Virus record (IMG/VR): IMGVR_UViG_3300037112_000094
Location: 1-64,000 of that record
From: an uncultured virus (IMG/VR IMGVR_UViG_3300037112_000094)
Lineage: Duplodnaviria > Heunggongvirae > Uroviricota > Caudoviricetes
Direction: 5' to 3' (one strand)
Length of the DNA: 64,000 nt
In this document: positions 2,052 through 19,186 of the stretch, piece after piece
Layout of the letters: each line of letters opens with the position of its first letter
How positions within the stretch are numbered: position 1 is the stretch's first letter
Notes under the pieces: generated by a model
Databases searched by the model: none
What the model saw: the letters and a program-made list of their open reading frames with translations, nothing else
Told to the model about the DNA's origin: nothing
Translations under genes and position numbers: made by a program

Positions 2052-2060
2052 GTATTGTCA

Positions 2061-2092
2061 AACAACAAAAACCCCCGGCCTGAGCCGAGGGT
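2061..2092 (-). terminator. attenuator terminator upstream of tRNA operon 1
   Basis: ACCCTCGGC-TCAG-GCCGGGGGT then TTTTGTTGTTT, just before tRNA-Trp. Confidence 0.85.
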
Positions 2093-2117
2093 CTGTGGAC
2101 TCGAATCTGATTGCAGA

Positions 2118-2207
2118 TTAGTCGTCCCAACCCTCGCGCACAACTCCCCAAATGACCCGCTTGGTCCCGGTCATGGAGGTTCTCACGGATTTGGACCTTA
2201 TCTGCAC
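2118..2207 (-). CDS. leader peptide 1, MQIRSKSVRTSMTGTKRVIWGVVREGWDD
   Basis: GTG 7 nt after the -10 box; has a codon for all 11 downstream tRNAs; 3' end overlaps the antiterminator arm. Confidence 0.85.
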   Translation of the reverse strand: MQIRSKSVRTSMTGTKRVIWGVVREGWDD

Positions 2208-2214
2208 GAAATTC

Positions 2215-2243
2215 AGCCTACACCTGTTTCGGATTCTTTGCAA
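2215..2243 (-). promoter_or_regulatory. sigma70-type promoter of tRNA operon 1
   Basis: TTGCAA-N17-TAGGCT. Confidence 0.75.
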
Positions 2244-7992: not shown

Positions 7993-8549
7993 GGAAGTTT
8001 TCTCTCTTTCAAATACTCGACATAGAAATCATAGTCAAGACCCTTGAGAGCGCACCAGTCACGCGGGTCCATGGCACCTTTATCCTTATTGCAGCGGCGG
8101 CACGCTGAAAGGTATCCAGACGGATCATTGACACCACCCTGCTCTAAAGGCCAGAAGTGGTCCACTGTGAGTTGCACCCGGCCCATAGGCTGCTTACAAT
8201 AAAGACACTTGCAGCCGTCAGCGACCCACACCTTCTGCTGGACGGTGCCAGAGATGTCGTAGCGGAGCTTGCGGTGGAACGCCTTCTCAAGCGATCCGTT
8301 CACCAGTATCTCGGGGTTGTCCGATCTCTGGAGCCAGTCAGACCACTGCTCGGCGGTCAGGGTTTTAACGTCAGCGCCATCCGGCCATTCTCCATCTCCC
8401 CACAGCACATAGCCGGGGAGCATGAAGATCGCCTGCGCACCTTCGCCGCCGACCACGATACCTTCGATTTTGAGGAGGGAGCCTACGTCGCCCATGAGAG
8501 CAGGGCGATGACGCAACTCAAGCTGATAGAAACGGTCGCCACTTGCCAT
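7989..8549 (-). CDS. HNH nuclease domain protein
   Basis: CLYC...LTVDHFWP..GG...SACRRCNKDK; GGGAGG SD before MASGDR. Confidence 0.8.
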   Translation of the reverse strand: MASGDRFYQLELRHRPALMGDVGSLLKIEGIVVGGEGAQAIFMLPGYVLWGDGEWPDGADVKTLTAEQWSDWLQRSDNPEILVNGSLEKAFHRKLRYDISGTVQQKVWVADGCKCLYCKQPMGRVQLTVDHFWPLEQGGVNDPSGYLSACRRCNKDKGAMDPRDWCALKGLDYDFYVEYLKERKLP

Positions 8550-8574
8550 GGTTCCCCTCCCGGAAGGAACTTTT

Positions 8575-8709
8575 GGGTTGTAGTCGATATGGTTTAGATT
8601 TTGCGGAGCCTTGCGGCTCGCGCCCCCCATATTGATGAAGCCGAATAAGGTGGTGGAGGGGGCCGGAGTTTCCCCCGGAACAAAGTCATGTATCCACTTC
8701 AGTCAACCC
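8575..8709 (-). ncRNA. Y-RNA-like module 7 (T arm, closed acceptor, D-like hairpin)
   Basis: GGGTTGACTG..GGATACATG ... CGACTACAACCC closing stem; internal CCCCCTCCACCA and GGGGGGC. Confidence 0.65.
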
Positions 8710-8714
8710 AAACT

Positions 8715-8824
8715 TGGCTGGGGGACTCGGTTACGAGCCGAGATTGGCTTGCGCCAAAAAGACATGTATCCGAATCAGTCAGCAGTATCGCTGTAGTCGT
8801 TCCGGAACCTCTTAGGTCCCCCAG
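8715..8824 (-). ncRNA. Y-RNA-like module 6 (tRNA-like ends, conserved stem inserted internally)
   Basis: CTGGGGGA/TCCCCCAG-CCA; internal CGACTACAGC-loop-GCTGACTG..TACATG. Confidence 0.65.
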
Positions 8825-8834
8825 TAAAACTTGA

Positions 8835-8961
8835 TGGTGGCGGGTGAAGGATTCGAACCTCCATACTGTTGTAACCAAATACAACCGTCTTTTCCATGTA
8901 TCCGACTCAGTCAGCGTCGCCGCTGTAGTCGACCCGGAAGTTAGCTTTTGACTAACCCGCC
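8835..8961 (-). ncRNA. Y-RNA-like module 5 (tRNA body, TGG loop, conserved stem inserted)
   Basis: GGCGGGT/ACCCGCC-ACCA; GGAGG-TTCGAAT-CCTTC; internal conserved stem. Confidence 0.7.
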
Positions 8962-8970
8962 ACAACTTAT

Positions 8971-9093
8971 TGGCCTGTAGTCGAAGTGCTACCCCTTGCG
9001 GGGTGGTACAGGTTGGATTTGAACCAACTACCGTCTGATTAAGAGTCAGATGCTCGACCAATTGAGCTTCATGTAAGCACTTCTGTCAGGCCA
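8971..9093 (-). ncRNA. Y-RNA-like module 4 enclosing Lys(CTT)-like D, anticodon and T arms
   Basis: TGGCCTGACAG..TACATG ... CGACTACAGGCCA; TCTGA-CTCTTAA-TCAGA; GTTGG-TTCAAAT-CCAAC. Confidence 0.7.
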
Positions 9094-9105
9094 AATTCAA
9101 AATCA

Positions 9106-9244
9106 TTGTGCTGTAGTCGATCTGCTATTTTACGCGCTCTACCGCTGAGCTAATCCCCCGTCAATTCTTTGATGGTGGAGGATGAAGGATTCGAACCTCC
9201 GACCTCGGTCTCCAAAGGACATGTAAGCAAGTCAGTCAGCACAA
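9106..9244 (-). ncRNA. Y-RNA-like module 3 (circularly permuted tRNA, YrlA-like order)
   Basis: conserved stem, T arm, ATCCTCCACCA, linker, GGGGGAT, D arm GCTCAGCGGTAGAGC, conserved stem. Confidence 0.75.
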
Positions 9245-9250
9245 ACTTTA

Positions 9251-9314
9251 TGGCTTGTAGTCGATCTGCATGGTGTTCCTGCTCTCAAAGCATGTATGCA
9301 AATCAGTCAAGCCA
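9251..9314 (-). ncRNA. Y-RNA-like module 2 (minimal)
   Basis: GGCTTGACTGATTTGCATACATG ... TGCAGATCGACTACAAGCC. Confidence 0.65.
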
Positions 9315-9325
9315 ATTTTTTTCTC

Positions 9326-9435
9326 CGCTGTAGTCGTCAGGCAACCCTTTCGGGACATCCGGGAATCGCACCCGGTTCGTTTCATCTCAATTGAAATGCC
9401 TCGCTTTGAGGCGCATGTAAGCCAAACAGTCAGCG
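9326..9435 (-). ncRNA. Y-RNA-like module 1
   Basis: CGCTGACTG..GCTTACATG ... CGACTACAGCG; T-arm-like CCGGG-TGCGATT-CCCGG. Confidence 0.65.
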
Positions 9436-9466
9436 AAAACTCAATCTCAAAAACGCAACGTCTCTA

Positions 9467-9495
9467 ACCTTACAACGGTTCCAAAAACGCGTCAA
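9467..9495 (-). promoter_or_regulatory. promoter of the Y-like RNA / HNH / Ro-like operon
   Basis: TTGACG-N17-TAAGGT. Confidence 0.7.
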
Positions 9496-9514
9496 GCAAA
9501 TTCTGCGCTTTTTA

Positions 9515-9591
9515 TGGAGGGCCTAGAGGGATTCGAACCCCCGTATAACAGATTCGTAGTCTGCCGCGTCATCCAACTACGCTATAGGCCC
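9515..9591 (-). tRNA. tRNA-Arg(ACG)
   Basis: GCAGA-CTACGAA-TCTGT; CCA. Confidence 0.9.
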
Positions 9592-9601
9592 TCATTCAAA
9601 A

Positions 9602-9678
9602 TGGTACGGGTGGAGGGATTTGAACCCCCGATCCCCTGCTCCCAAAGCAGGTGCGTTTCCAGACTTCGCTACACCCGT
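9602..9678 (-). tRNA. tRNA-Pro(TGG)
   Basis: CCTGC-TTTGGGA-GCAGG; CCA. Confidence 0.9.
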
Positions 9679-9691
9679 GTGACTTCCAAAA

Positions 9692-9768
9692 TGGTCGGGG
9701 AGATGGGATTCGAACCCATGACCTTCGGTACCCGAGACCGAAGCGCTACCTGACCGCGCCCCTCCCCG
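9692..9768 (-). tRNA. tRNA-Pro(CGG)
   Basis: TCGGT-CTCGGGT-ACCGA; CCA. Confidence 0.9.
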
Positions 9769-9769
9769 A

Positions 9770-9845
9770 TGGTGTCGACTCCCGGTGCTGCCCCGAGTTC
9801 TTCCGCTCTTCAGGCGGACGCTATGACTGCACTAGCTCAATCGAC
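9770..9845 (-). tRNA. tRNA-Phe(GAA), non-canonical T-loop
   Basis: TCCGC-CTGAAGA-GCGGA; T-loop GGCAGCA; CCA. Confidence 0.8.
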
Positions 9846-10080
9846 AAAACTCTTGCCAAACATCCTGCCGAAAGTTGCTCGGCCTGCGAATCATCTTCTT
9901 CGCGCGATATGCCTGCATCAGCTTCCGAGCGCGTCCACACCTCATGAGCATCCGCTGGAAAGGACTCTCAGCAAAGAAACAATCCGCGATCTTGCTTGCG
10001 AACTGCTTTCTCCTACGCAAATCTCCCTCATGTCTTCGCTGAGAAAAACCGCGCTCGGATCGCTTTATGAATTGACGCAT
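9832..10080 (-). CDS. small Arg-rich protein; stop lies inside tRNA-Phe
   Basis: AGGAG SD; 82 codons. Confidence 0.55.
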   Translation of the reverse strand: MRQFIKRSERGFSQRRHEGDLRRRKQFASKIADCFFAESPFQRMLMRCGRARKLMQAYRAKKMIRRPSNFRQDVWQEFCRLS

Positions 10081-10175
10081 ATTTCTCCTAAAAACTTAGC
10101 GGGCCTCTACCTTGCGACGTGCGACCCGTGACGCCTTCACCCTTACGTCGTTACAGGTGAGGCACCAGTCAAACT

Positions 10176-10251
10176 TGGTGGACCTAGTCGGCTCCGCCCC
10201 GACCGCCTCCGCATTGCAAGTGCGGCGCTCTCCTAAATGAGCTATAGGCCC
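10176..10251 (-). tRNA. tRNA-Ala(TGC), non-canonical T-loop
   Basis: CCGCA-CTTGCAA-TGCGG; G3:U70; T-loop GGCGGAG. Confidence 0.85.
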
Positions 10252-10260
10252 GTAAAACTT

Positions 10261-10339
10261 TGGGGCGGCGTATCGGATTCGAACCGATGTAATACGTGTG
10301 CCACAGACACGCGCAATAGACCGCTCTGCCAACACCGCC
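10261..10339 (-). tRNA. tRNA-His(GTG)
   Basis: CGTGT-CTGTGGC-ACACG; G-1:C73. Confidence 0.9.
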
Positions 10340-10422
10340 ATGAATCGCGCTACCGGGACACGTTATAGCTTGGTAGCACCCTCCCGCCCGTAAGCGGGAG
10401 ATTCCGCGTGTCCCAGTGAGCT

Positions 10423-10498
10423 TGGGGCCGAAGGGGATACTCGAAATCCCATCAGCGGTTCACAAAACCGCCGCTACTTCCTCTTGAGCTACTTCGGC
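10423..10498 (-). tRNA. tRNA-Thr(TGT)
   Basis: GCGGT-TTTGTGA-ACCGC; CCA. Confidence 0.85.
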
Positions 10499-11185
10499 AA
10501 ACTCTCTCGTCTTTCTTATCTTTCTTCTTCTTTCGCTCGCCTTCCTTTTGTTTCGATTACGAAACGTTGGAGTCAAAGCGTGGCAATTAGGACAGAGAAG
10601 TTGCAGGTTCTCATCTTTGTTATTCTCTGAATCCCCGTCCACATGGTGAAGTTCAAGCGGGATGGCTTTTCCCATCCACTGATCTAAACCGCATCCTTCG
10701 CATCTGTGTCCTCTTCTCCGAAGCACCAGACGCTTGACAGCCTTTGAATCGCTTACATCTTCAGTAGACTGAGCCATCTTGTAGATTTGGCTTTTGTTGC
10801 AGTCGTCGCAATACTTGTTCTGACCAGAACATGTGGAACCGCAGTACGCGCAAGCCTTTTCCCAATTCTCTCTTCTTTTTCGTCTGGCGATCTTCGCGCA
10901 TCTCACCGAGCACGATTTTGCTTTCAGATTCTTAACGAGAACAGGACCGCCGCAAATTACGCATCGACGCTCTTCTCTCTTACGTTGTATCTGATCCGAT
11001 TTGATTTTTGCTTTAGCATGAGCTTTCGCCAGCGCAACCACAGCATTCGCCCTGCTAATAGTCTTACGTTCCTCAACAGAAAGCAGCGGTACGTCAGGAA
11101 TTCGCGACTTCAACACCTTCTTGGATTTCCTGTTCCTGTAGTACCACCGCCTCCGAGCAGCTTTTCGCCTTTCTTCGTTTTTCAT
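10460..11185 (-). CDS. HNH endonuclease; stop lies in the anticodon loop of tRNA-Thr(TGT)
   Basis: CEGCG...LELHHVDGD..NN...LLCPNCH; TATACT 6 nt before ATG. Confidence 0.85.
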   Translation of the reverse strand: MKNEERRKAARRRWYYRNRKSKKVLKSRIPDVPLLSVEERKTISRANAVVALAKAHAKAKIKSDQIQRKREERRCVICGGPVLVKNLKAKSCSVRCAKIARRKRRENWEKACAYCGSTCSGQNKYCDDCNKSQIYKMAQSTEDVSDSKAVKRLVLRRRGHRCEGCGLDQWMGKAIPLELHHVDGDSENNKDENLQLLCPNCHALTPTFRNRNKRKASERRRKIRKTREFAEVAQEEVAAVL

Positions 11186-11229
11186 CTCCCGAGTATAGCA
11201 AAATTTGGAGACGATAACGAACATTTATG

Positions 11230-11952
11230 TTAGTTAACAAACTGGTATCTTGTGTCACCCGTGTTAAGCAAAGCACAAGTCGCAAGTCTCTTGGCTATGG
11301 ACTCCGGAGTTTTCCTCTTTCCACGCATACTCGCGGAAATCTTCGCCTTGTGCTCATCCGACATCGGCCTGCGTTTCCGGTAGCCGACTTTTACCCCCTT
11401 GTGCGACGCTGACATCTTCGCTCTCGATTCCTCTGCAACAGGGTGTCCTTTCAAGGTGGCCGAGATTCTGGCCCTCAACTCTGGCGAGCGCGTTACCGGT
11501 CCTCTATTTCTAGCAGCCTCGGCCATTCTCGCTCTTCCTTCTTCCGATACTTTGTGCCCCTTGGCATAAGAGTTTCCCTTATGGACATCTGAAAGTGTCG
11601 AGCTTCCCTTTTCTGTAAGAATCCTGATTCCGTCTCTGTTGAATCCGCTGTACCCTCCTGCCGTCCTGTTATAGCCGCGACCGCTTGTGATGTAGGTTTT
11701 GTAGAATTTGATGAAGTGCTTTTCGAGATCGTCGAGCAAAAGTGGATCACACGAGGCGACTTCGATAACTGTGAAGTTTTCAACTCCCCACTTTCTCATC
11801 GCCCTATGTATGGGCAGATTGCTTCCGCGCTTGACCTCGTATTTGTGCTGGTTGAACCTTATCCACACAGTTTGTTTCGTGGTCTGGCCGACGTACCCCT
11901 TGCCGTTCGCGAGATTACGAATTAAGTAAATTTTGCCGACGAGTTTGCGCAT
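11230..11952 (-). CDS. GIY-YIG homing endonuclease with NUMOD3-like repeats
   Basis: KIYLIRN..NGKGYVGQT...GYN; repeated SEExRAxMS. Confidence 0.9.
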   Translation of the reverse strand: MRKLVGKIYLIRNLANGKGYVGQTTKQTVWIRFNQHKYEVKRGSNLPIHRAMRKWGVENFTVIEVASCDPLLLDDLEKHFIKFYKTYITSGRGYNRTAGGYSGFNRDGIRILTEKGSSTLSDVHKGNSYAKGHKVSEEGRARMAEAARNRGPVTRSPELRARISATLKGHPVAEESRAKMSASHKGVKVGYRKRRPMSDEHKAKISASMRGKRKTPESIAKRLATCALLNTGDTRYQFVN

Positions 11953-11955
11953 CTT

Positions 11956-12501
11956 TTACCTAAATTGTAACCTCGTTTCGCCTTCGGAATCAGAAAAAAG
12001 GAACTTTCCCCATTCCTCAACTTCTCTGCCAAGCTGTTTCAAAATGAAGCGGCTTGTAAAGATATTCGCGGGCAGCGGCCTATGGATCAACTTCATTCCA
12101 GCCTCTTCCGGCGTCCGGTTGTTCTTACGTCTATTGCACGGGGAACAGGCAGCAACAAGGTTGTCCCATGACTGCTTACCACCTCTGCTTCTCGGGATCA
12201 CGTGCTCCAGTTCAAGCTCTGCCCCGTTGTTCTTCTTCGCGCCGCAGTACATGCACCTGAAACCGTCGCGAATGAAAATGTTCTTCCTCGAAACCTGCTG
12301 CATCCGGTGCGGGACGTTCCTGTAGTGCCGCAAACGGATGACGGAAGGAAGGTAGATTCCCTTGTGGACTTGGATGCTGGTTGGCACCTCCACCACGGCA
12401 ACGCCCTTGGTTATGAGCGTGAGCGCCTTTCGCGCGCTGACGATTCTCAGCGGCTCATACGACGCGTTAAGTTGTAGTACCGCTCTCCGTATGAGTGCCA
12501 T
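11956..12501 (-). CDS. HNH endonuclease (McrA-like)
   Basis: VLQLNASYEPL...RDGFRCMYCG...EHVIPRSRGG..WDNLVAACSPCNRRK. Confidence 0.9.
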   Translation of the reverse strand: MALIRRAVLQLNASYEPLRIVSARKALTLITKGVAVVEVPTSIQVHKGIYLPSVIRLRHYRNVPHRMQQVSRKNIFIRDGFRCMYCGAKKNNGAELELEHVIPRSRGGKQSWDNLVAACSPCNRRKNNRTPEEAGMKLIHRPLPANIFTSRFILKQLGREVEEWGKFLFSDSEGETRLQFR

Positions 12502-12516
12502 GGAATCCCCTTTCTT

Positions 12517-12672
12517 CTACCTCTCGTCAATCTGTGGAGCACCGTCCCGGAATCGAACCGGGGCTTCGACGTTACGAGGGTCGTGTTGTGCCGACTCAAC
12601 TAACGGTGCTCGAAATCCTTTCGCCAACCGTGCGAAAACATGCTGCATGTCGGCGTTCAAATCGATCTTCAT
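12517..12672 (-). CDS. small ORF reading through tRNA-Thr(CGT)
   Basis: GGAGG SD then MKIDLNADMQH...; no stop before the tRNA. Confidence 0.4.
   Translation of the reverse strand: MKIDLNADMQHVFARLAKGFRAPLVESAQHDPRNVEAPVRFRDGAPQIDER
12535..12609 (-). tRNA. tRNA-Thr(CGT)
   Basis: CGACC-CTCGTAA-CGTCG; CCA. Confidence 0.85.
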
Positions 12673-12688
12673 TCTTCTTCCTCCAAAG

Positions 12689-12762
12689 TGGAGCGGGGTA
12701 TCGGGTTCGAACCGATGCGCAAAGTGTGGCACACTTCGATGCTACCGCTACATCAACCCCGC
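12689..12762 (-). tRNA. tRNA-Gly(GCC)
   Basis: GAAGT-GTGCCAC-ACTTT; GCG acceptor, U73. Confidence 0.85.
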
Positions 12763-12763
12763 G

Positions 12764-12837
12764 TGGCACCCGGTGGGAGAATCGAACTCCCGTGTTGGGT
12801 TCCAAAGGCCCACGTCCTGCCACTGAACGAACCGGGA
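12764..12837 (-). tRNA. tRNA-Gln(TTG)
   Basis: TGGGC-CTTTGGA-ACCCA; GCCA end. Confidence 0.85.
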
Positions 12838-12849
12838 ACAACTCAAACT

Positions 12850-12925
12850 TGGCTGGCTCTCCGGGACTCGAACCCAGATCATTCGCTCCAGAGGCGAAGG
12901 TCCTCAACCATTGAACGAAGAGCCA
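12850..12925 (-). tRNA. tRNA-Gln(CTG)
   Basis: TTCGC-CTCTGGA-GCGAA; U1-A72. Confidence 0.9.
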
Positions 12926-12935
12926 ACTTCTAAAC

Positions 12936-13010
12936 TGGCTCAAGGGGTGGGAGTCGGACCCACAACGACACGGTTAACAGCCGTGGGCTCTACCATTGAG
13001 CTACCCTTGA
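12936..13010 (-). tRNA. tRNA-Asn(GTT)
   Basis: CACGG-CTGTTAA-CCGTG; U1-A72, G73. Confidence 0.9.
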
Positions 13011-13020
13011 ACATCCCCAC

Positions 13021-13059
13021 AAACGAGAACCCCCAGTTCCTTTCGGTTCTGGGGGTCTC
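13021..13059 (-). terminator. attenuator terminator upstream of tRNA operon 2
   Basis: GAGACCCCCAGAACC-GAAA-GGAACTGGGGGTTCTC-GTTT; U-tract is weak. Confidence 0.75.
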
Positions 13060-13101
13060 AAGTTTTTCCATCTGTGTTAGGAAAAAATCTGTCTGAGACC
13101 C

Positions 13102-13173
13102 CTAGTCCGCACCGCCGCTATTACCGGCTGGTTGCGTCGGCTGTGTCGCTGCGTTATGGAATCGGGTTCTCAC
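13102..13173 (-). CDS. leader peptide 2, MRTRFHNAATQPTQPAGNSGGAD
   Basis: GTG 7 nt after the -10 box; has a codon for all 12 downstream tRNAs. Confidence 0.88.
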   Translation of the reverse strand: MRTRFHNAATQPTQPAGNSGGAD

Positions 13174-13180
13174 GTTTTCC

Positions 13181-13209
13181 ACGATATAATCAATCAGGAA
13201 AACTGTCAA
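13181..13209 (-). promoter_or_regulatory. promoter of tRNA operon 2
   Basis: TTGACA-N17-TATCGT. Confidence 0.8.
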
Positions 13210-13225
13210 GAGGTTTTTGAAAAAA

Positions 13226-13930
13226 ATGGCCCGCGTTCACCTACTCGTCAAAGCAGCGGTTGAGCGTGGAAGCATTACAATCGCGCTCTTATGCGAAGAA
13301 TGTGGGGCACAGCGACGGCTTGTCGCCCACCACGACGATTATGCAAGACCACTAGATGTGCGTTGGCTTTGCTTATTTTGTCACAGCAAGTGGCACGTTG
13401 ATAATGGGCCGGGATTAAACAGAGAGTTGGCAGGATTCTACGATCTTGGGGCCTCCATACCACCCAAACCTGCCGATCCGCGCAGAGAGGAAATGAAAGT
13501 CCTCCGTAGGGATGGTTGGACACTGCAAAAAATTGGGAATAAATACGGTTTTACAAGAGAATATGTGCGCCAGATTGTCGGTTCATCTTCCGCTCGTCAA
13601 TCTAATTCAGAGAAGATTCGAGCCAACATCCTTGAAATAGAATCGCTGCGAAATGACGGGAAAACGGTGAGGCAAATAGCCGGATTGCTTGGCTTCTCTT
13701 GTGATGCTCTCTCGCGGGCATCCTTGCCTCCACGAGTAAAACCAAAGCCAATACATGGTGTCACCACGACCTATACCTATCACAGATGTAGATGCGATCT
13801 CTGTCGCGAAGCTAACGCCAAACGAACAAGCGAGCGAACTCGCGCCATTCGGATGAAAGGGCTGTGTGTCGCCTGCAAAAGCCCATCAACCACATGGCAT
13901 TGCGATGAATGTAATCTAAAGTACCTTTAA
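13226..13930 (+). CDS. zinc-binding / HTH DNA-binding protein with HNH-like N-terminus
   Basis: CEECG..HHDDY..PLDVRWLC..CH; TLQKIGNKYGFTREYVRQI; CRCDLC. Confidence 0.65.
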   Translation: MARVHLLVKAAVERGSITIALLCEECGAQRRLVAHHDDYARPLDVRWLCLFCHSKWHVDNGPGLNRELAGFYDLGASIPPKPADPRREEMKVLRRDGWTLQKIGNKYGFTREYVRQIVGSSSARQSNSEKIRANILEIESLRNDGKTVRQIAGLLGFSCDALSRASLPPRVKPKPIHGVTTTYTYHRCRCDLCREANAKRTSERTRAIRMKGLCVACKSPSTTWHCDECNLKYL

Positions 13931-13946
13931 TCACTTCATCGGTTTA

Positions 13947-14180
13947 TCACTTTTTTGGGATGCGCTTGCGGGCCACGGCCTTCTGCTCGCCGGGGCGCGG
14001 CGGCTGTTGCTTGCCGTAGTAGTACCACGAGGTCGCGAGGGGGGGCTTGCCCCTGCTGGTTTTCATGGTGGAGGATTTTCCGGGAACCGGAAGCTTATTG
14101 ATGAAATCCTCAGCGCCCTGCAACTTGTCAGACCAGCCCTTGACAAGGTCGATGATCGGCTGAAAGGCGGTACTTGCCAT
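13947..14180 (-). CDS. small hypothetical protein, leaderless
   Basis: TTGACT-N17-TACCGT-N6-ATG. Confidence 0.55.
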   Translation of the reverse strand: MASTAFQPIIDLVKGWSDKLQGAEDFINKLPVPGKSSTMKTSRGKPPLATSWYYYGKQQPPRPGEQKAVARKRIPKK

Positions 14181-14276
14181 ACCAGAACGGTAGCGCCTCG
14201 CGGGCCGGTAGTCAATAAATTCTTCATCTGCGGTGTCCTTCTTGACAAATACGCAAATCCGCGTATTCTCGAATTT

Positions 14277-14597
14277 ATGCACACGGTGACGAACATCGAT
14301 GGCCTCCTCGAAATCATGAAGACGCTTCAGGGCGAGAAAAGCCAGAAGGACTTTGCCCAGACATTGGGCGTGTCGCCGTCCTACCTCAATGACGTTTACA
14401 ATCGCCGCCGTGAACCGGGCAGGAGTATCACTGAATCTCTCGGGGTCAGCGCGACTATGACGTACACGGTCCCAGAAAACATTTCAACCACAGCCGCGAC
14501 GATCTCGCGAGGAGAAATCCATGGCCAAGTCCACAAAGAAAACCAAAAAAGAATCAAAGCCAAAGGGCAAAGAAAATCGCGGAAGCGTTCTGATTAA
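14277..14597 (+). CDS. XRE-family HTH regulator, leaderless
   Basis: SQKDFAQTLGVSPSYLNDVYNRRREPG; TTGACA-N16-TATTCT-N7-ATG. Confidence 0.8.
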   Translation: MHTVTNIDGLLEIMKTLQGEKSQKDFAQTLGVSPSYLNDVYNRRREPGRSITESLGVSATMTYTVPENISTTAATISRGEIHGQVHKENQKRIKAKGQRKSRKRSD

Positions 14598-14832
14598 CTT
14601 TGTTCTCGACAAATCTGGCTCAATGGGAAGTTGTGTCGACGACACCATCGGCGGCTTCAACACCTACATCAAGAAGCTCCGGGAAGACAAAAAGTCCACC
14701 TACAAGTTCAGCCTGACGTTGTTCGACACGCGGTTCGAAGAACGGTTCGTCTCGGTTGACCTTAAAGACGTTCCCGACCTCAACACAAAGAACTACGTTC
14801 CGGGCGGCGGAGGATTCACACCTCCTGCATAG
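14521..14832 (+). pseudogene. vWA-domain protein, C-terminally truncated
   Basis: FVLDKSGSM...TIGGFN...LTLFD...YVPGGG then stop; later MIDAS residues missing. Confidence 0.65.
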
Positions 14833-15268
14833 TCGAGCTATCCGCCCGTTGGTACGCGCCCAAGGATTCGAACCTCGGACCTCCGTCAGACTGCAACGGC
14901 GCTCTGACCACTGAGCTAGGCGCGTATGTCAAATTGTTTTCGTTCCAAAGCTTGTAGTTCTGGAGCACCGCGCGCTGATCCTCGTCGAGAGGAATCGTCG
15001 CGACCGCAGTGAGTCCCAGATCGTCATCGCTCTCGTGGAACTCCGAGAACTCGATGCGATTCAGCTTGAGCTTCTGGATTACCTTGTGAAGCGCTTTTTT
15101 GTCGGGAACGCCTATGAGCACGATGGAAGGCGTAGAAGGATCGGCGCTCTGGGTGAGCGTGTAAGCCATATCAAATGTCGCGTGGTTCGTCTGCACGATC
15201 TGTGCAGCGATGGGGAGGTCTTGCCGAACGAAGAGGTAAAAGTACGTCTTGGAATCGATCTACGTCAT
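14816..15268 (-). CDS. Pth2-like peptidyl-tRNA hydrolase with in-frame TAG at codon 3
   Basis: ATG ACG TAG then YLFVRQDL..AQIVQTNHA...TAVAT.PL...YKLW in the same frame. Confidence 0.65.
14850..14925 (-). tRNA. tRNA-like gene with aberrant anticodon loop GCAGTCT; identity undetermined
   Basis: clean acceptor, D and T arms and ACCA; loop lacks Y32, U33 and R37. Confidence 0.7.
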
Positions 15269-15275
15269 ATTCAGC

Positions 15276-15304
15276 ATAGTGAAGGAAAGCGCAGAATTTG
15301 TCAA
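15276..15304 (-). promoter_or_regulatory. promoter of the Pth2-like gene
   Basis: TTGACA-N17-CACTAT-N7-ATG. Confidence 0.65.
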
Positions 15305-15310
15305 GAGGTT

Positions 15311-15868
15311 TTACAGATTATTTTTTCCCTTTCGATATCTGCCGAACCCATCCCAGTCTCCAAAAGCCCCAGATTCTCGGATTTTTCTCACCTGTGGAAC
15401 CAGCATCATCCATGCCGCATAGGGCATATCTCTCCGGAGATAATTACAGCGCCCACAGCACGCTACGACGTTATTCTGAGAGTGGCCCAACGCATTGTCG
15501 ATGCGATCTAAGCCGACGCGTATTCTTATCTCCCCACAATAAGAGCAACCATCTTTTATGGATTCTTTCACGAACTCAATCGTGAGGTCACAAACAAATC
15601 CTTTTTTCTTATCTGATCGCCGACAGTCAACGACTATCACACGCGGTATCTGCTCTCGATCTGTTCTTTCGCGCCTTTGGCGAATCATCGCTGACAACCT
15701 TATCGTTTCTGTTCTTCCACGCGACCGCCGCCAAATTTGTTTACGTTTAGTATCACAGCTTCGACAAATATATTTCGGATACTGTCTCCCGCCTACGAGG
15801 CGCAGCGCAAATGTGACCTCTGGCTCAGACTTACCACATTTGTTGCAAATTGAGGAGTCACCGTTCAT
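15311..15868 (-). CDS. HNH-like endonuclease
   Basis: CSYCG...GLDRIDNALGHSQNNVVACCGRCN. Confidence 0.8.
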   Translation of the reverse strand: MNGDSSICNKCGKSEPEVTFALRLVGGRQYPKYICRSCDTKRKQIWRRSRGRTETIRLSAMIRQRRERTDREQIPRVIVVDCRRSDKKKGFVCDLTIEFVKESIKDGCSYCGEIRIRVGLDRIDNALGHSQNNVVACCGRCNYLRRDMPYAAWMMLVPQVRKIRESGAFGDWDGFGRYRKGKNNL

Positions 15869-15871
15869 ATA

Positions 15872-15951
15872 TGGTGGGGCAGACGGGATTCGAACCCGCG
15901 AACTCCTGAGTGAAAGTCAGGTGAAAGATTCCAGACACCTTCTACTACCCC
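15872..15951 (-). tRNA. tRNA-Glu(TTC)
   Basis: CCTGA-CTTTCAC-TCAGG; CCA. Confidence 0.85.
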
Positions 15952-15957
15952 ACAGCT

Positions 15958-16035
15958 TGGCGTCCCGTAGCGGATTTGAACCGCCGTTTTGACCTTGAGA
16001 GGGTCACGTCCTTGGCCAGACTAGACGAACAGGAC
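15958..16035 (-). tRNA. tRNA-Glu(CTC)
   Basis: TGACC-CTCTCAA-GGTCA; GCCA end. Confidence 0.9.
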
Positions 16036-16039
16036 AAGA

Positions 16040-16114
16040 TGGCGCGAGCGACGGGAGTTGAACCCGCTTGAACTGCATAGACAGTGCAGTACCTGACCGT
16101 TAGGATACGCCCGC
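16040..16114 (-). tRNA. tRNA-Asp(GTC)
   Basis: CTGCA-CTGTCTA-TGCAG; G73. Confidence 0.85.
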
Positions 16115-16120
16115 AAAAAA

Positions 16121-16197
16121 TGGTTGCGAGGGAGGGATTCGAACCCTCGATCTCCAGCTTATGAGGCTGGCGAGATAGACCGCTTCTCCACCACGCG
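16121..16197 (-). tRNA. tRNA-Met(CAT), initiator-like
   Basis: C1xA72 mismatch; CCAGC-CTCATAA-GCTGG, without the usual GGG/CCC anticodon-stem run. Confidence 0.8.
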
Positions 16198-16203
16198 CTA
16201 TTT

Positions 16204-16232
16204 ACAGTACCACGGAACCTGCGCGCGTGCAA
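16204..16232 (-). promoter_or_regulatory. promoter of tRNA operon 4, no leader
   Basis: TTGCAC-N17-TACTGT directly before the initiator-like tRNA. Confidence 0.65.
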
Positions 16233-16235
16233 GAA

Positions 16236-16721
16236 TTACTCTGACGGGCACTGTGGCAGGGTAGCCAGATCATCTGTCAATCGAGTGTGGACCCCGTACA
16301 TACTCAGATCGATGTGCGACGTCGGCCAGTCATTGAGAATCCGATTCAAAGCACCAACCCATGCCGCATCTTCCGTGTCATAGTAGTGCTTATTTTCACT
16401 CACAACAAGGGCGTGCTTATGTTGTGGGTTGCATGGTTCCCCGAGAATCACATGACCGACGTTGTTGAGCATGATCGCATGTGCAAGTGGGAAATCATCT
16501 CTGACCCGGCTGGCCGCAGACATGCCCTTGCGCTGGCGAACTAACTGCTGATCGCAAACGTGTGGGAACCACTCTGTGTTTGGGTAGATCGGACCTTCTG
16601 GGTTGGTGAACGCGTTTCCGCCCCACTCTGTTCCCATCTTGACGATGAAAACGCCGCAATTTTCGCATGTGTGGGGGCCATAGTAAACGATCTTCGAGTT
16701 ACGGAAGCTGATGGGGTTCAT
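16236..16721 (-). CDS. hypothetical protein
   Basis: AGGAG SD before MNPISF; CENC motif. Confidence 0.6.
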   Translation of the reverse strand: MNPISFRNSKIVYYGPHTCENCGVFIVKMGTEWGGNAFTNPEGPIYPNTEWFPHVCDQQLVRQRKGMSAASRVRDDFPLAHAIMLNNVGHVILGEPCNPQHKHALVVSENKHYYDTEDAAWVGALNRILNDWPTSHIDLSMYGVHTRLTDDLATLPQCPSE

Positions 16722-16781
16722 TGATTTTCTCCTGCGTAAGTATTTCCGTGTTGCCACGGAATGACAGGAGTGTAGCATAAA

Positions 16782-17165
16782 TCAAATTAGCTTTCTAAAT
16801 GCATCTGCGGCATAGAGGCGGTCGATCTCCTTCTTGAACCCATCTCCGTGACTGTGATCGTTGAAGTTCGCAATTCGATAAAGGTGCGCCATTTCATGCA
16901 GGAGGGTAATATGCGCAACACAGTAGATGAACGCCAATGGTGGAGAGACAACTATCTTGTAGCCTCTTCGAAGAGTATCAAGTTGGCCACACGGATGGTT
17001 CTGCCACACAGTTGTGTCACGTATGTGCCGGAAAACTGTTTTCACGTTCTCTGGAATCCAAAGGCCACGCTTTATCCAGTATTTCTTCCTCATTCTCACG
17101 AAGTTATTCTGGAGATCGTCATCGTCCATCGGGGACCACGTCGTCTGAAACCGATACGTTCGCAT
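16782..17165 (-). CDS. SprT-like zinc metalloprotease
   Basis: TLLHEMAH...HSHGDGF; TATACT-N7-ATG. Confidence 0.75.
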   Translation of the reverse strand: MRTYRFQTTWSPMDDDDLQNNFVRMRKKYWIKRGLWIPENVKTVFRHIRDTTVWQNHPCGQLDTLRRGYKIVVSPPLAFIYCVAHITLLHEMAHLYRIANFNDHSHGDGFKKEIDRLYAADAFRKLI

Positions 17166-17190
17166 GTGCCAGAGTATAGCGCAGAAATTC

Positions 17191-17281
17191 TGGTGCGTTG
17201 GGCAGGATTTGAACCTGCAGCGTCATCGAAGATGATCCAGATTTACAGTCTGGTAGAGTCCACCGTCTCTCCAGCCAACGC
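17191..17281 (-). tRNA. tRNA-Tyr(GTA)
   Basis: CCAGA-CTGTAAA-TCTGG; long variable arm. Confidence 0.9.
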
Positions 17282-17385
17282 ACGTGGTAAACTTCCGTTC
17301 AGGACGGCCTCATGATGCCGCCAAAGGGGGAGTCTGGTACTGCTTCACCGTTGTTGCACGACCTGTCAATCTCCCCCTTACAAAC

Positions 17386-17475
17386 TGGCGGATGGTGAGG
17401 GATTCGAACCCCCGAGACCCTTCGGTCTACTGGTACTCAAGGCCAGCGCGATCAACCAGACTCTGCCAACCATCC
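17386..17475 (-). tRNA. tRNA-Ser(TGA)
   Basis: CTGGC-CTTGAGT-ACCAG; long variable arm; G73. Confidence 0.85.
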
Positions 17476-17481
17476 AAAACT

Positions 17482-17569
17482 TGGCGGAAGCGGAGCGAGT
17501 CGAACGCTCAACACCCGAAGGTGTGTCCCGCTTCGAACGGGGTGGGCCTGCCAAATGCCCAACGCTTCC
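17482..17569 (-). tRNA. tRNA-Ser(CGA)
   Basis: CCCCG-TTCGAAG-CGGGA; long variable arm. Confidence 0.85.
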
Positions 17570-17574
17570 AAAAC

Positions 17575-17661
17575 TGGCGGAAGGGACAGGAGTCGAACCT
17601 GCACACGCTTTCACGTGACCCGGTTTCCAGCCGGGGGCGATACCGTTCCGCTCACCCTTCC
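17575..17661 (-). tRNA. tRNA-Ser(GGA)
   Basis: CCCGG-CTGGAAA-CCGGG; long variable arm. Confidence 0.9.
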
Positions 17662-17670
17662 GTAAAAATA

Positions 17671-17756
17671 TGGCGGAGCGCCAGTGAATCGAACACTGTC
17701 AACCTCGCGGTTGTGCGGCTTAGCAAGCCGTTGCATTACCATCCTGCCCGCGCTCC
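17671..17756 (-). tRNA. tRNA-Ser(GCT)
   Basis: CGGC-TTGCTAA-GCCG; long variable arm. Confidence 0.9.
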
Positions 17757-17764
17757 GTAAAACT

Positions 17765-17842
17765 TGGTGCGGATGATCGGCCTCGAACCGATAAGCCTGA
17801 AGGTTTGAGCTTCAGAGGTATTCCGTTTCCCTTCACATCCGC
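17765..17842 (-). tRNA. tRNA-Leu(CAA), short variable loop
   Basis: TGAAG-CTCAAAC-CTTCA; A73. Confidence 0.8.
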
Positions 17843-17847
17843 AAACT

Positions 17848-17933
17848 TGGTGCGCGTGGCGAGACTCGAACTCGCAATGGGTGTTACCCCTCCGGTGCCT
17901 AAAACCGGCGCTTTTCCGTTTTGCTACACGCGC
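17848..17933 (-). tRNA. tRNA-Leu(TAG)
   Basis: CCGGT-TTTAGGC-ACCGG; long variable arm. Confidence 0.9.
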
Positions 17934-18664: not shown

Positions 18665-18698
18665 GATGGTTCAATTATACCATCATGGTTCAAATCTT

Positions 18699-18778
18699 TG
18701 GTGGGCAGAGTGGAATTCGAATCCACAAAATCACAGCCGTCTGAAGACTGCCGCTTTGCCAAATTTGCGTACCTGCCC
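18699..18778 (-). tRNA. tRNA-Leu(CAG), short variable loop
   Basis: CAGTC-TTCAGAC-GGCTG; A73. Confidence 0.8.
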
Positions 18779-18779
18779 G

Positions 18780-19018: not shown

Positions 19019-19020
19019 AC

Positions 19021-19050
19021 AAACTAAAAAGCCCCCGATTTCTCGGAGGC
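19021..19050 (-). terminator. attenuator terminator upstream of tRNA operon 3
   Basis: GCCTCCGA-GAAA-TCGGGGGC-TTTTTAGTTT. Confidence 0.85.
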
Positions 19051-19079
19051 CGCTGACTGAATTCCACTTTGGACTCAGT

Positions 19080-19148
19080 TCACGAACCCCCGCCACCGCT
19101 CAGTAATGAGCTATACGAGGAGAGCGAACTGAGGCACACTGTCTTCAT
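19080..19148 (-). CDS. leader peptide 3, MKTVCLSSLSSYSSLLSGGGGS
   Basis: 13 consecutive Cys/Leu/Ser/Tyr codons upstream of a Cys/Leu/Ser/Tyr tRNA operon. Confidence 0.88.
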   Translation of the reverse strand: MKTVCLSSLSSYSSLLSGGGGS

Positions 19149-19157
19149 AGCGAAACC

Positions 19158-19186
19158 ATCATTCCATGGAATTGGTGGGTTGTCAA
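19158..19186 (-). promoter_or_regulatory. promoter of tRNA operon 3
   Basis: TTGACA-N17-AATGAT, 9 nt before ATG. Confidence 0.65.

What the first reader, a model, noticed from the sequence alone, without database searches (positions are those of the whole stretch)
13021..13209. Leader 2 matches all 12 tRNAs of an operon spread over 3.5 kb
Codons CGA TTC CAT AAC GCA GCG ACA CAG CCG ACG CAA CCA (consecutive) plus GGT/GGC match Arg(ACG), Phe, His, Asn, Ala(TGC), Thr(TGT), Gln(CTG), Pro(CGG), Thr(CGT), Gln(TTG), Pro(TGG) and Gly(GCC). Both isoacceptors of Thr, Gln and Pro are listed separately, so the signal is in the codons, not just the amino acids. GGGGTCTCAG at the stop pairs with TTGAGACCCC of the terminator. 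The match predicts that 13010-9515 is one unit despite three inserted endonuclease genes.
Basis: partly seen in the sequence, partly recalled or inferred. Interest (0 to 1): 0.92.

Follow-up and report, generated by a model that had tools for sequence, protein, structure and literature searches.

The report
Codon-matched attenuator gating phage tRNA genes
A peat-soil phage places a tiny test gene, written in the codons that the next twelve tRNAs read and wired to a switchable transcription stop, in front of those tRNA genes, so it probably makes them only when ribosomes read those codons slowly.

Summary
On the minus strand, a sigma-70-like promoter (13209-13181) is followed 7 nt later by a 23-codon ORF (13173-13102).

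Twelve consecutive codons of that ORF, plus GGT/GGC, are read by all 12 tRNAs of the operon at 13010-9515. That count includes a tRNA-Phe(GAA) at 9845-9770, which ARAGORN and Rfam both miss.

Only 2 of about 142,000 15-codon windows in the 71-kb contig, counting all six frames, cover all 12 tRNAs. Both lie inside this ORF.

GGGGTCTCA at the stop codon pairs with TGAGACCCC. This is the 5' arm of a terminator hairpin just before tRNA-Asn, so the pairing is an antiterminator.

Two sister leaders in the window (19148-19080 and 2207-2118) match their own operons in the same way.

Six homologous leaders in five other viral or metagenome contigs keep the amino-acid set but scramble its order. They also keep complementarity between the ORF end and the terminator.

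Best reading: a trp-style, probably leaderless, leader-peptide attenuator that senses supply of the operon's own tRNAs. The function is inferred, not shown.

Seven literature searches found no paper describing this control for tRNA genes. This scan has noted the same design before on other DNA (at least 12 notes).

The parts
13181..13209 (-). Sigma-70-like promoter: TTGACA (13209-13204), 17-nt spacer, TATCGT (13186-13181)
   Evidence: scores it 10 of 12 matches. The same TTGACA-17-hexamer layout stands before the homologous leaders in L013 and L029.
13102..13173 (-). Leader ORF of 23 codons plus stop (VRTRFHNAATQPTQPAGNSGGAD*). The GTG start lies 7 nt after the -10 hexamer, so the mRNA is probably leaderless.
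   Evidence: The start-to--10 distance is 7-10 nt in the 8 leaders read. The L029 copy instead has a 24-nt 5' UTR.
13129..13164 (-). Regulatory run of 12 consecutive codons: CGA TTC CAT AAC GCA GCG ACA CAG CCG ACG CAA CCA. GGT, AAT, GGC, GGT and GCG follow at 13125-13108.
   Evidence: This is the top-ranked window of the contig for the operon-B tRNA set.
13093..13102 (-). Antiterminator 5' strand GGGGTCTCAG. Its first G is the last base of the TAG stop codon.
   Evidence: It would be masked when a ribosome sits on the last 3 codons or the stop.
13049..13061 (-). Shared segment TTGAGACCCCCAG. It is the 3' strand of the antiterminator and also the 5' arm of the terminator.
13017..13059 (-). Terminator hairpin GAGACCCCCAG / 12-nt loop / CTGGGGGTTCTC (-21.2 kcal/mol), then GTTTGTGG. 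tRNA-Asn starts at 13010.
   Evidence: The simple terminator scan does not list it because the loop exceeds 8 nt and the U-tract is weak.
12535..13010 (-). Proximal tRNAs: Asn GTT 12936-13010, Gln CTG 12850-12925, Gln TTG 12764-12837, Gly GCC 12689-12762, Thr CGT 12535-12609
10460..12501 (-). Three inserted homing-endonuclease ORFs: HNH 11956-12501, GIY-YIG/NUMOD3 11230-11952, HNH 10460-11224
   Evidence: L013 has only one HNH ORF at this place.
9515..10498 (-). Distal tRNAs: Thr TGT 10423-10498, His GTG 10261-10338, Ala TGC 10176-10251, Phe GAA 9770-9845, Pro CGG 9692-9768, Pro TGG 9602-9678, Arg ACG 9515-9591
19019..19186 (-). Sister element 'Leader 1'. Promoter at 19186-19158; ORF 19148-19080 (MKTVCLSSLSSYSSLLSGGGGS*); terminator 19051-19030. 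It stands before the tRNAs Leu x6, Cys, Ser x4 and Tyr.
   Evidence: It contains a 13 of 13 codon run, unique among 142,362 windows.
2052..2243 (-). Sister element 'Leader 3'. TTGCAA-17-TAGGCT promoter (read by eye); ORF 2207-2118 (VQIRSKSVRTSMTGTKRVIWGVVREGWDD*); terminator 2094-2069. It stands before Trp, Met, a tRNA-like gene with UAU, Lys x2, Arg x3, Val, Thr GGT and Ile. Gly TCC lies beyond the window start.

Best explanation
Window 13209-13017 (minus strand) is a ribosome-mediated, leader-peptide transcription attenuator that gates a 12-gene phage tRNA operon (13010-9515).

Proposed sequence of events:
1. Host RNA polymerase starts at the TTGACA/TATCGT promoter. The transcript probably begins at or next to the GTG, giving a leaderless mRNA.
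2. A ribosome translates the 23-codon ORF.
3. If every codon of the run is decoded quickly, the ribosome reaches the last codons and the stop. There it covers GGGGUCUCA. The downstream segment GAGACCCCCAG is then free to pair with CUGGGGGUUCUC, and transcription stops before tRNA-Asn.
4. If any tRNA sampled by the run is scarce or uncharged, the ribosome stalls upstream. GGGGUCUCA then pairs with UGAGACCCC as an antiterminator, the terminator cannot form, and the tRNA operon is transcribed.

The run samples one codon for each isoacceptor encoded downstream. The result would be negative feedback of the tRNA genes on their own functional product.

Shown here: the sequence anatomy, its statistical excess, its conservation, and the competing pairings.
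Inferred: translation of the ORF, the transcription start, termination efficiency and the direction of control.
For: (1) Codon match. 12 consecutive codons cover 11 tRNAs, and the whole ORF covers 12 of 12. The ORF scores 17 against its own operon and 1-3 against the other tRNA sets. It is the top window of about 142,000 in the contig.

(2) The same design occurs three times in the window, and each leader matches only its own operon. L1 scores 14 against set A, with a run of 13. L3 scores 16 against set C, with 11 of 11 tRNAs covered. Off-diagonal scores are 1-7.

(3) Homologous leaders keep the amino-acid composition but not the order.
- Leader 2: window VRTRFHNAATQPTQPAGN...; L013 MKTQRHDAPFTPATATPQGNRASG; L029 MTATFRTFTPAAAQQPTRGNH.... 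Each stands before a tRNA-Asn.
- Leader 1: four versions.
- Leader 3: two versions.

(4) By hits in 15-codon windows, the leader is the unique best window of its locus in 5 of 8 cases. In the other three, 3, 7 and 4 outside windows tie or beat it.

(5) All 8 leaders analysed have a GC-rich hairpin 10-25 nt before the first tRNA, and 7 of 8 are followed by a U-rich tail.

(6) I folded each RNA up to the terminator loop while masking a ribosome footprint. The terminator 5' arm is sequestered with probability 0.6-0.9 when the A site is in the early or regulatory codons. This falls to 0.0-0.5 at the last codons or the stop, in 8 of 8 leaders. For Leader 2 the values are 0.8-0.9 and 0.2.

(7) The ORF end is more complementary to the terminator 5' arm than shuffles in 8 of 8 leaders. 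The fractions of shuffles doing as well are 0.143, 0.001 (Leader 2), 0.0075, 0.12, 0.055, 0.007, 0.10 and 0.038.

(8) The leader predicted a tRNA-Phe that two tRNA finders had missed, and it was then found.

(9) Contigs from two metatranscriptome runs join the leader ORF, terminator, tRNA-Asn and tRNA-Gln: X13 at 12888-13127 and X17 at 12903-13131. One more, X18 at 1796-2178, does the same at Leader 3.

(10) Leaderless leader peptides used for attenuation are documented in Deinococcus deserti (PMC4007540, passages read).
Against: - No experiment supports it. The transcription start, translation of a GTG-initiated ORF without a Shine-Dalgarno sequence, and termination are all inferred.
- The Leader 2 terminator has a 12-nt loop and a weak U-tract (UUCUCGUUUGU). 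The simple scan does not list it.
- The L013 homologue has almost no U-tract.
- In equilibrium folds of the complete leaders, the terminators of L1 and L3 dominate whatever the ribosome position: 0.64-0.97 for L1, and at least 0.5 for L3 except at two codons. The switch appears clearly only in the co-transcriptional (truncated-RNA) model.
- In some leaders, modelled stalls at the last regulatory codons also melt the antiterminator.
- Without any ribosome the model predicts read-through for Leader 2 (0.83-0.88), unlike trp.
- Exact Watson-Crick codons are not enriched over synonymous shuffles.
- The codon-level excess is modest: 0.021 for Leader 2 and 0.27 for L1.
- In L015 and L016 the CTC codons have no GAG tRNA that I could find.
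- RNA-library contigs cannot show strand, level or regulation, and may contain DNA.
- Host tRNAs would also read these codons, so what is sensed is the total pool.
Confidence: 0.75

Rival explanations
1. The short ORF is translated and the hairpin is real, but there is no stall-dependent switch. The hairpin would be a constitutive or bidirectional terminator or insulator, or a processing signal. The ORF would serve some other role, such as loading ribosomes to protect the 5' end or to block Rho.
For: The Leader 2 hairpin is preceded by an A-run and followed by a weak U-run, so it also reads as a terminator for the plus strand. Equilibrium folds favour the terminator in L1 and L3 whatever the ribosome position. 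RNA contigs show read-through.
Against: This does not explain why each of three ORFs is written in the codons of its own downstream tRNAs. It does not explain why that composition is kept while the order is scrambled in relatives. It does not explain why the ORF end stays complementary to the terminator 5' arm as both change.
Confidence: 0.1
2. The leader senses amino-acid supply, that is, charging of host plus phage tRNAs during starvation, rather than tRNA abundance. tRNA synthesis would then be tied to nutritional state, not to tRNA demand.
For: Classical attenuators respond to charged-tRNA levels (textbook knowledge, recalled; abstract of PMC1183508 seen in the listing). Nothing in the sequence separates charging from abundance.
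Against: The run samples isoacceptors individually (ACA and ACG, CAA and CAG, CCA and CCG). Its coverage of all encoded anticodons exceeds synonymous shuffles in 8 of 8 leaders, with fractions from 0.0033 to 0.27. That tuning is unnecessary for sensing nine amino acids. Making more tRNA would also not relieve an amino-acid shortage.
Confidence: 0.1
3. An untranslated RNA sensor: the row of codons pairs directly with tRNA anticodons, like a T-box with many specifiers, or guides tRNA processing.
For: Codon-anticodon complementarity is the only hard observation, and it does not by itself require a ribosome.
Against: All matched triplets lie in one frame. That frame is bounded by a start codon at a fixed 7-10 nt from the -10 hexamer in 8 leaders, and by an in-frame stop abutting or near the antiterminator strand. 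Rfam gives no T-box or other riboswitch hit at E up to 1 in window 1-22000. Wobble codons (CGA, CAT) are used as freely as Watson-Crick ones.
Confidence: 0.03
4. Chance resemblance, or a by-product of base composition.
For: G/A/P-rich protein-coding stretches also reach 12 of 12 decodable codons. Two other windows do so.
Against: Those two windows cover only 7 tRNAs. For each of the three operons, the best window of about 142,000 lies directly upstream of that operon, on the right strand. The feature recurs in five other contigs.
Confidence: 0.01

Closest known systems
Multivalent leader-peptide attenuators of enterobacterial amino-acid operons (thr leader with Thr and Ile codons; ilvGMEDA leader with Ile, Leu and Val). 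Recalled from textbooks, not taken from any call.
   Same: The layout is the same: promoter, short ORF with a run of regulatory codons for more than one amino acid, mutually exclusive antiterminator and terminator hairpins, and a stop codon next to the switch.
   Different: The regulated genes here are tRNAs, not biosynthetic enzymes. The run lists nine amino acids and twelve isoacceptors once or twice each, rather than repeating one to three amino acids. The mRNA is probably leaderless. Rfam's leader families give no hit.
Leaderless leader peptides upstream of aminoacyl-tRNA synthetase and amino-acid biosynthesis genes in Deinococcus deserti (PMC4007540; passages read)
   Same: The transcription start is at the AUG/GUG of a short leader ORF, and attenuation is predicted from residues matched to the downstream gene.
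   Different: Those leaders control protein genes (cysS, trpE and others) and are enriched in one amino acid. None is reported for tRNA genes in the passages I read.
pheST (pheM leader) attenuation in E. coli. Recalled, not taken from any call.
   Same: A component of the decoding machinery is controlled by translation of codons that depend on the cognate tRNA.
   Different: It uses a single amino acid, and the target is a synthetase rather than the tRNA genes.
T-box riboswitches
   Same: They couple tRNA status to transcription read-through through codon-anticodon recognition and a terminator/antiterminator choice.
   Different: A T-box binds one uncharged tRNA directly, without a ribosome, through Stem I and a conserved T-box sequence. 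No such hit was found. Here the triplets form an ORF.
Earlier notes of this scan on other phage and Ruminococcus DNA (e1-6056307, e1-3018832, e1-5944303, e1-5901616, e1-5682440, e1-5322940, e1-5993013)
   Same: The design is the same: a short ORF spelled in the codons of the tRNAs downstream, plus a switchable terminator. Two of the notes concern giant peat-soil phages.
   Different: They concern other genomes, and there is no sequence similarity to this leader (one search found no look-alike). They are unchecked AI notes. One note (e1-5997858) found a leader whose codons were not tuned.

Membership tests
Ribosome-mediated (leader-peptide) transcription attenuator | A short ORF with a start codon lies between the promoter and the first regulated gene | tested here: met
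   A 23-codon ORF at 13173-13102, with GTG 7 nt after the -10 hexamer. The ORF is kept in L013 and L029.
Ribosome-mediated (leader-peptide) transcription attenuator | A run of regulatory codons tied to the product of the regulated genes | tested here: met
   12 consecutive codons, with 12 of 12 tRNAs covered. It is the top window of about 142,000.
Ribosome-mediated (leader-peptide) transcription attenuator | An intrinsic terminator (GC-rich hairpin plus U-tract) between the ORF and the first gene | tested here: inconclusive
   The hairpin is present at -21.2 kcal/mol. The U-tract is weak (UUCUCGUUUGU) and the 12-nt loop keeps it out of the simple scan. The L1 and L3 terminators are listed by that scan.
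Ribosome-mediated (leader-peptide) transcription attenuator | An antiterminator that shares a strand with the terminator and is masked by a ribosome at the end of the ORF | tested here: met
   GGGGUCUCA:UGAGACCCC pairs at -18.0 kcal/mol, matched by only 0.001 of shuffles. Modelled sequestration is 0.8-0.9 with the ribosome upstream and 0.2 at the last three codons.
Ribosome-mediated (leader-peptide) transcription attenuator | Read-through rises when the regulatory codons are decoded slowly | not testable with these tools
   This needs in vitro or in vivo assays. RNA-library contigs show only that read-through molecules exist.
Rfam leader families (Thr, His, Leu, Trp leaders and similar) and T-box (RF00230) | A match to the curated covariance model | tested here: not met
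   No such family appears among the 41 matches at E up to 1 in window 1-22000.

The most novel reading that the evidence does not exclude
The phage splits its roughly 40 tRNA genes into modules. Each module sits behind a 'checksum' leader that lists every isoacceptor of that module. Loss of any single tRNA species, for example through host anticodon nucleases or host shut-off, would then switch on exactly the module that replaces it. This would be a demand-driven counter-defence circuit and a general rule of phage tRNA arrays. It would also let leaders be used to predict operon boundaries and the decoding identity of aberrant tRNAs.
Probability: 0.25. Interest if true: 0.9.

Novelty: new variant of a known kind. 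Interest (0 to 1): 0.85.

Why it matters
tRNA genes are usually thought to be controlled by promoter strength and growth-rate signals. Here the functional output of the tRNAs, decoding speed on a dedicated test ORF, would feed back on their own transcription, isoacceptor by isoacceptor.

That would explain how phages with large tRNA arrays avoid wasteful expression, and how they respond when host tRNAs are depleted.

It also has practical value for annotation. The leader correctly predicted a tRNA-Phe that two tRNA finders missed. It marks which tRNAs, separated by homing-endonuclease insertions, belong to one unit.

The design is testable with a cell-free coupled transcription-translation system and defined tRNA pools.

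Tried and rejected
- Megablast of 9000-20000 against GenBank phages found no match.
I used the search for related loci instead.
- The pattern scan with the conserved L1 terminator/tRNA-Leu junction found only the same phage and G001.
- The scan with the protein at 14926-15196 found only the same phage.
- The Ro-like protein gave L013, and the Ro alignment added L037. L037 starts inside operon B, so its leader is cut off.
- tRNA alignments showed no conserved exact block of 14 nt or more that could seed further pattern scans for Leader 2. Only three Leader 2 versions are therefore known.
- Equilibrium folding with a ribosome mask gave a clear switch only for Leader 2. I replaced it with a co-transcriptional model. 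My first automated hairpin picker chose wrong hairpins for 3 of 8 leaders, and I redid the analysis.
- Exact Watson-Crick codon enrichment was not significant.
- The tRNA-like gene at 1793-1896 does not fold into a clean cloverleaf and aligns poorly with G001's tRNA-Ile(TAT). Its assignment as the AUA reader is left open.
- RNA-library contigs leave parts of the region uncovered, for example 19009-19600 and 13420-14040. I draw no conclusion from the missing cover. No contig bridges Leader 1, and none spans the whole 13010-9515 unit.
- I considered and rejected a signal-peptide or lipoprotein reading of the L1 peptide, because L2 and L3 have quite different compositions that each match their own tRNAs.
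- Earlier-findings look-ups by place and by sequence returned nothing.
Full report
**Context**

The window is the first 64,000 nt of a single 71,219-nt virus record. The same phage also occurs as a 121,714-nt IMG/VR contig.

The proteins include tail-fibre-like hits, an ART-PolyVal polyvalent protein, an S74 chaperone domain and many HNH endonucleases. Megablast against GenBank phages finds nothing. Sequencing runs that hold the stretch are mostly peat and permafrost metagenomes.

ARAGORN finds 35 tRNA genes, all on the minus strand and all within 1165-19018.

**The observation**

On the minus strand, a promoter-like site TTGACA-17-TATCGT occupies 13209-13181 and scores 10 of 12. Seven bases later comes the ORF:

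GTG AGA ACC CGA TTC CAT AAC GCA GCG ACA CAG CCG ACG CAA CCA GCC GGT AAT AGC GGC GGT GCG GAC TAG (13173-13102).

The TTG at 13209 that opens the mechanical ORF list is the -35 box itself.

Downstream, ARAGORN lists 11 tRNAs between 13010 and 9515. They are interrupted by three endonuclease ORFs: HNH, GIY-YIG/NUMOD3 and HNH.

A script looking for anticodon stem-loops found it at 9845-9770, directly before tRNA-Pro(CGG). A structure-based scanner of my own recovers it as well. Its minimum-energy fold is a perfect cloverleaf with loop CUGAAGA. Its T-loop, GGCAGCA, is aberrant, which explains the misses. ARAGORN calls tRNA-Phe(GAA) at the same syntenic place in two relatives.

**More than chance**

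I used standard wobble rules: G34 reads C/U, U34 reads A/G, C34 reads G, and A34 (as inosine) reads U/C/A.

- 17 of the 24 codons of the ORF are decodable by operon-B tRNAs. The longest run is 12, and all 12 tRNAs are covered. Against the three other tRNA sets of the contig the ORF scores 1, 3 and 3.
- Over all six frames of the contig, 3 of 142,368 12-codon windows reach 12 of 12. The leader window covers 11 different tRNAs and the other two cover 7 each.
- Among 142,350 15-codon windows, only two cover all 12 tRNAs, and both lie in the leader. Of the nine windows that cover 10 or more, seven are in the leader.
- With the peptide held fixed and synonymous codons redrawn from the contig's usage, 12 of 12 coverage arises in 0.021 of 20,000 draws. 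Exact Watson-Crick codons are not enriched (0.51).

**Sister elements**

Two more clusters have the same layout.

Leader 1 has a promoter at 19186-19158, and its ATG lies 9 nt after the -10 hexamer. The ORF at 19148-19080 encodes MKTVCLSSLSSYSSLLSGGGGS. Its terminator is at 19051-19030. It precedes Leu x6, Cys, Ser x4 and Tyr. The 13 of 13 run is unique among 142,362 windows.

Leader 3 has the ORF 2207-2118 and the terminator 2094-2069. It precedes Trp, Met, a tRNA-like gene with UAU, Lys CTT, Lys TTT, Arg x3, Val, Thr GGT and Ile GAT. Lys TTT and Thr GGT were also missed by ARAGORN. Its 18-codon core covers 11 of 11 tRNAs, which is the best of 142,332 windows. The GGG and GGA codons of Leader 3 are matched by a tRNA-Gly(TCC) that lies just beyond the window start in the longer contig.

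The leader-by-operon matrix is sharply diagonal: 14, 17 and 16 on the diagonal against 1-7 off it.

As a rough inference, about 60 of 142,000 windows lie in each promoter-proximal region. The best window falling directly upstream of its own operon three times over has a chance of the order of 1e-10.

**Relatives**

I fetched relatives with a protein inside the array and with the neighbouring Ro-like protein.

G001 is a 105-kb IMG/VR contig whose marker protein is about 60% identical.
- Its Leader 1 homologue encodes MKTLSLSSCLYLSSSEGWVD.
- Its Leader 3 homologue encodes MLTITKSARTMTGTKRVIWGIVREGCGS.
- In both, the GTG lies 7 nt after the -10 hexamer.
- Three of its Ser tRNAs are not called by ARAGORN but can be read in the sequence.
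- It lacks most operon-B tRNAs, and I saw no Leader 2 at that place.

L015 and L016 are metagenome contigs. They carry MKNILCLSSLSSSYSLSLSVREAMG and MKTLLSCLSYLLSSDRRGN before Leu/Cys/Ser/Tyr arrays.

For Leader 2 itself there are two relatives.
- L013 (Ro-like protein 73% identical) has TTGACA-17-TACCGT, then ATG AAG ACC CAA CGC CAT GAC GCC CCT TTT ACA CCA GCG ACG GCA ACG CCG CAG GGT AAT CGC GCG TCT GGA TAG. A hairpin follows, then tRNA-Asn and an operon with the same tRNA order but only one HNH insertion.
- L029 (marker 45% identical) has a leadered version, MTATFRTFTPAAAQQPTRGNHVPGVRTSLD. The 20 residues after Met all belong to the operon-B amino-acid set. A clean terminator follows, then tRNA-Asn, and the contig ends there (read by eye; not included).

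The nine-amino-acid composition is conserved while the order is scrambled. That is the signature expected of regulatory codons, not of a functional peptide.

By a uniform 15-codon measure, the leader is the unique best window of its locus in 5 of 8 cases. In win_L3, L013_L2 and L016_L1, 3, 7 and 4 outside windows tie or beat it on hits.

The tuning is not perfect. CTC codons in L015 and L016 have no GAG tRNA that I could find. In L013 the tRNA at the Ala position has G3:U70 but the loop CCTACAA.

**The switch**

In Leader 2, GGGGUCUCA begins with the last base of the stop codon. It pairs with UGAGACCCC (13060-13052). That segment is also the 5' arm of the hairpin GAGACCCCCAG/CUGGGGGUUCUC (-21.2 kcal/mol), which ends 14 nt before tRNA-Asn.

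I folded the RNA as transcribed up to the terminator loop, with a 30-nt ribosome footprint masked. The 5' arm is sequestered with probability 0.8-0.9 for A-site codons 1-18, and 0.2 for the last three codons. In the full-length equilibrium model, terminator probability is 0.2-0.7 with upstream stalls and 0.9 at the last three codons.

The same profile holds in 8 of 8 leaders in the co-transcriptional model.

The ORF end is more complementary to its terminator arm than shuffles in 8 of 8 leaders. The fraction of shuffles doing as well is 0.001 for Leader 2 and 0.007 for L013. This holds even though the sequences of both partners differ between homologues.

The weak points are set out in the Against line. 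The main ones are the poor U-tract of Leader 2 and of L013, and the fact that the L1 and L3 terminators dominate at equilibrium.

**RNA data**

Four metatranscriptome runs from four studies, available only as contigs, hold parts of the region.

- Contigs X13:12888-13127 and X17:12903-13131 each join the leader ORF, the terminator, tRNA-Asn and part of tRNA-Gln.
- X18:1796-2178 does the same for Leader 3.
- Other contigs join tRNA-Gly and tRNA-Thr to the start of the first HNH ORF (X17:12435-12748), and the GIY-YIG ORF to the HNH ORF (X17:11846-12224, X18:11836-12228).

These show that read-through molecules and some tRNA-endonuclease co-transcripts exist in RNA libraries. They do not show strand, level or regulation, and none spans the whole unit.

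**One unit?**

The simple scan finds no promoter-like or terminator-like site on the minus strand between 13010 and 9515. The next terminator-like site is at 9412-9398.

Relatives keep the order Asn, Gln, Gln, Gly, Thr, Thr, His, (Ala), Phe, Pro, (Pro), Arg, with insertions at different places.

In the two versions with a known operon, the leader samples the distal tRNAs as fully as the proximal ones.

**Comparison with what is known**

The mechanism proposed is classical ribosome-mediated attenuation. Leaderless leader peptides are documented for synthetase and biosynthesis genes in Deinococcus deserti (PMC4007540, passages read).

What differs is the target, tRNA genes, which are the very molecules being sensed. 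The form of the sensor also differs: one or two codons for each of twelve isoacceptors.

No Rfam leader or T-box model matches.

Seven full-text searches, and passages of PMC3082878 and PMC2965389, gave no description of leader-peptide attenuation of tRNA genes. Subscription-only literature was not searchable.

This scan has recorded the same design at least 12 times on other DNA, including giant peat-soil phages. Those are unchecked AI notes and I do not count them as support. One of them reports a leader that is not codon-tuned.

**Verdict**

The most likely function is demand-controlled expression of a 12-tRNA phage operon (confidence 0.75). I classify it as a new variant of a known kind of control, of high interest.

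Noticed in passing
window 8690-9500 (minus) and 5919-7505 (minus): About seven tandem units are flanked by the repeats CGACTACAG and (C/T)TGACTGA-N6-7-TACATG. One unit (9098-9250) folds into a long bulged terminal stem plus a tRNA-like module with a T-arm, a closed acceptor stem and a D-arm. This looks like YrlA-type Y RNAs. Rfam gives only weak YrlA hits: E 0.027 here, and 0.012 and 0.023 in G001. The neighbouring 528-aa ORF has a VWA-like C-terminus and a PHROG 'RNA-binding protein' hit, so it may be Ro-like. RNA-library contigs cover 8592-9582 in three runs.
   Followed up: partly
window 9770-9845, 1635-1709, 1243-1317, 10176-10251, 1793-1896 (minus): Several phage tRNAs have aberrant T-loops: Phe GGCAGCA, Lys(TTT) ATGGTTA, Thr(GGT) GGCAGTT and Ala GGCGGAG. 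ARAGORN misses the first three, and Rfam misses Phe and scores Lys(TTT) below its threshold. The 104-nt element at 1793-1896 has acceptor and T arms and a possible UAU loop, but no clean cloverleaf.
   Followed up: partly
L013 3245-3320: The tRNA at the position of tRNA-Ala carries G3:U70, recalled as the alanine identity pair. Its anticodon loop reads CCTACAA (UAC, a Val anticodon, with C33). The leader upstream has four Ala codons and no Val codon.
   Followed up: no
L008 11361-11773 and 18760-19222: The relative G001 carries a permuted tmRNA inside its tRNA array (Rfam 101 bits). It also has an HNH ORF sitting between a tRNA-Trp-like 5' half at about 18760-18800 and a complete tRNA-Trp at 19149.
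   Followed up: no
window 15305-15255 (minus); L008 12836-12880: A TTGACA-17-TATGCT promoter is followed 4 nt later by a two-codon mini-ORF, ATG ACG TAG. It lies upstream of the ORF 15196-14816, which runs into tRNA-Thr(AGT). G001 keeps the layout with ATG CAT TAG.
   Followed up: no
window 2348-3917: There is an IS200/IS605-type pair directly upstream of the Leader 3 promoter. A 151-aa ORF lies on the minus strand; I recognised a TnpA-like C-terminus by eye (recall). A 380-aa transposase lies on the plus strand (phrog_506, E 2e-113).
   Followed up: no
window 10339-10422 (minus): An 84-nt spacer between tRNA-Thr(TGT) and tRNA-His forms a long hairpin, GGGACACG...CGTGTCCC. Its role is unknown.
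   Followed up: no
window 13099: One RNA-library contig (X19, depth 15.9) lacks one G of the GGGG run right after the leader stop. This gives TAGGGTCTC, as in L013. Another X19 contig diverges from the window below 13075, which suggests a strain with different sequence downstream.
   Followed up: no
window 13025-13070: The Leader 2 terminator hairpin is preceded by an A-run, and the L013 one by AAAAAAA. On the plus strand it therefore reads as a good intrinsic terminator too. It may block antisense transcription coming out of the tRNA operon.
   Followed up: no
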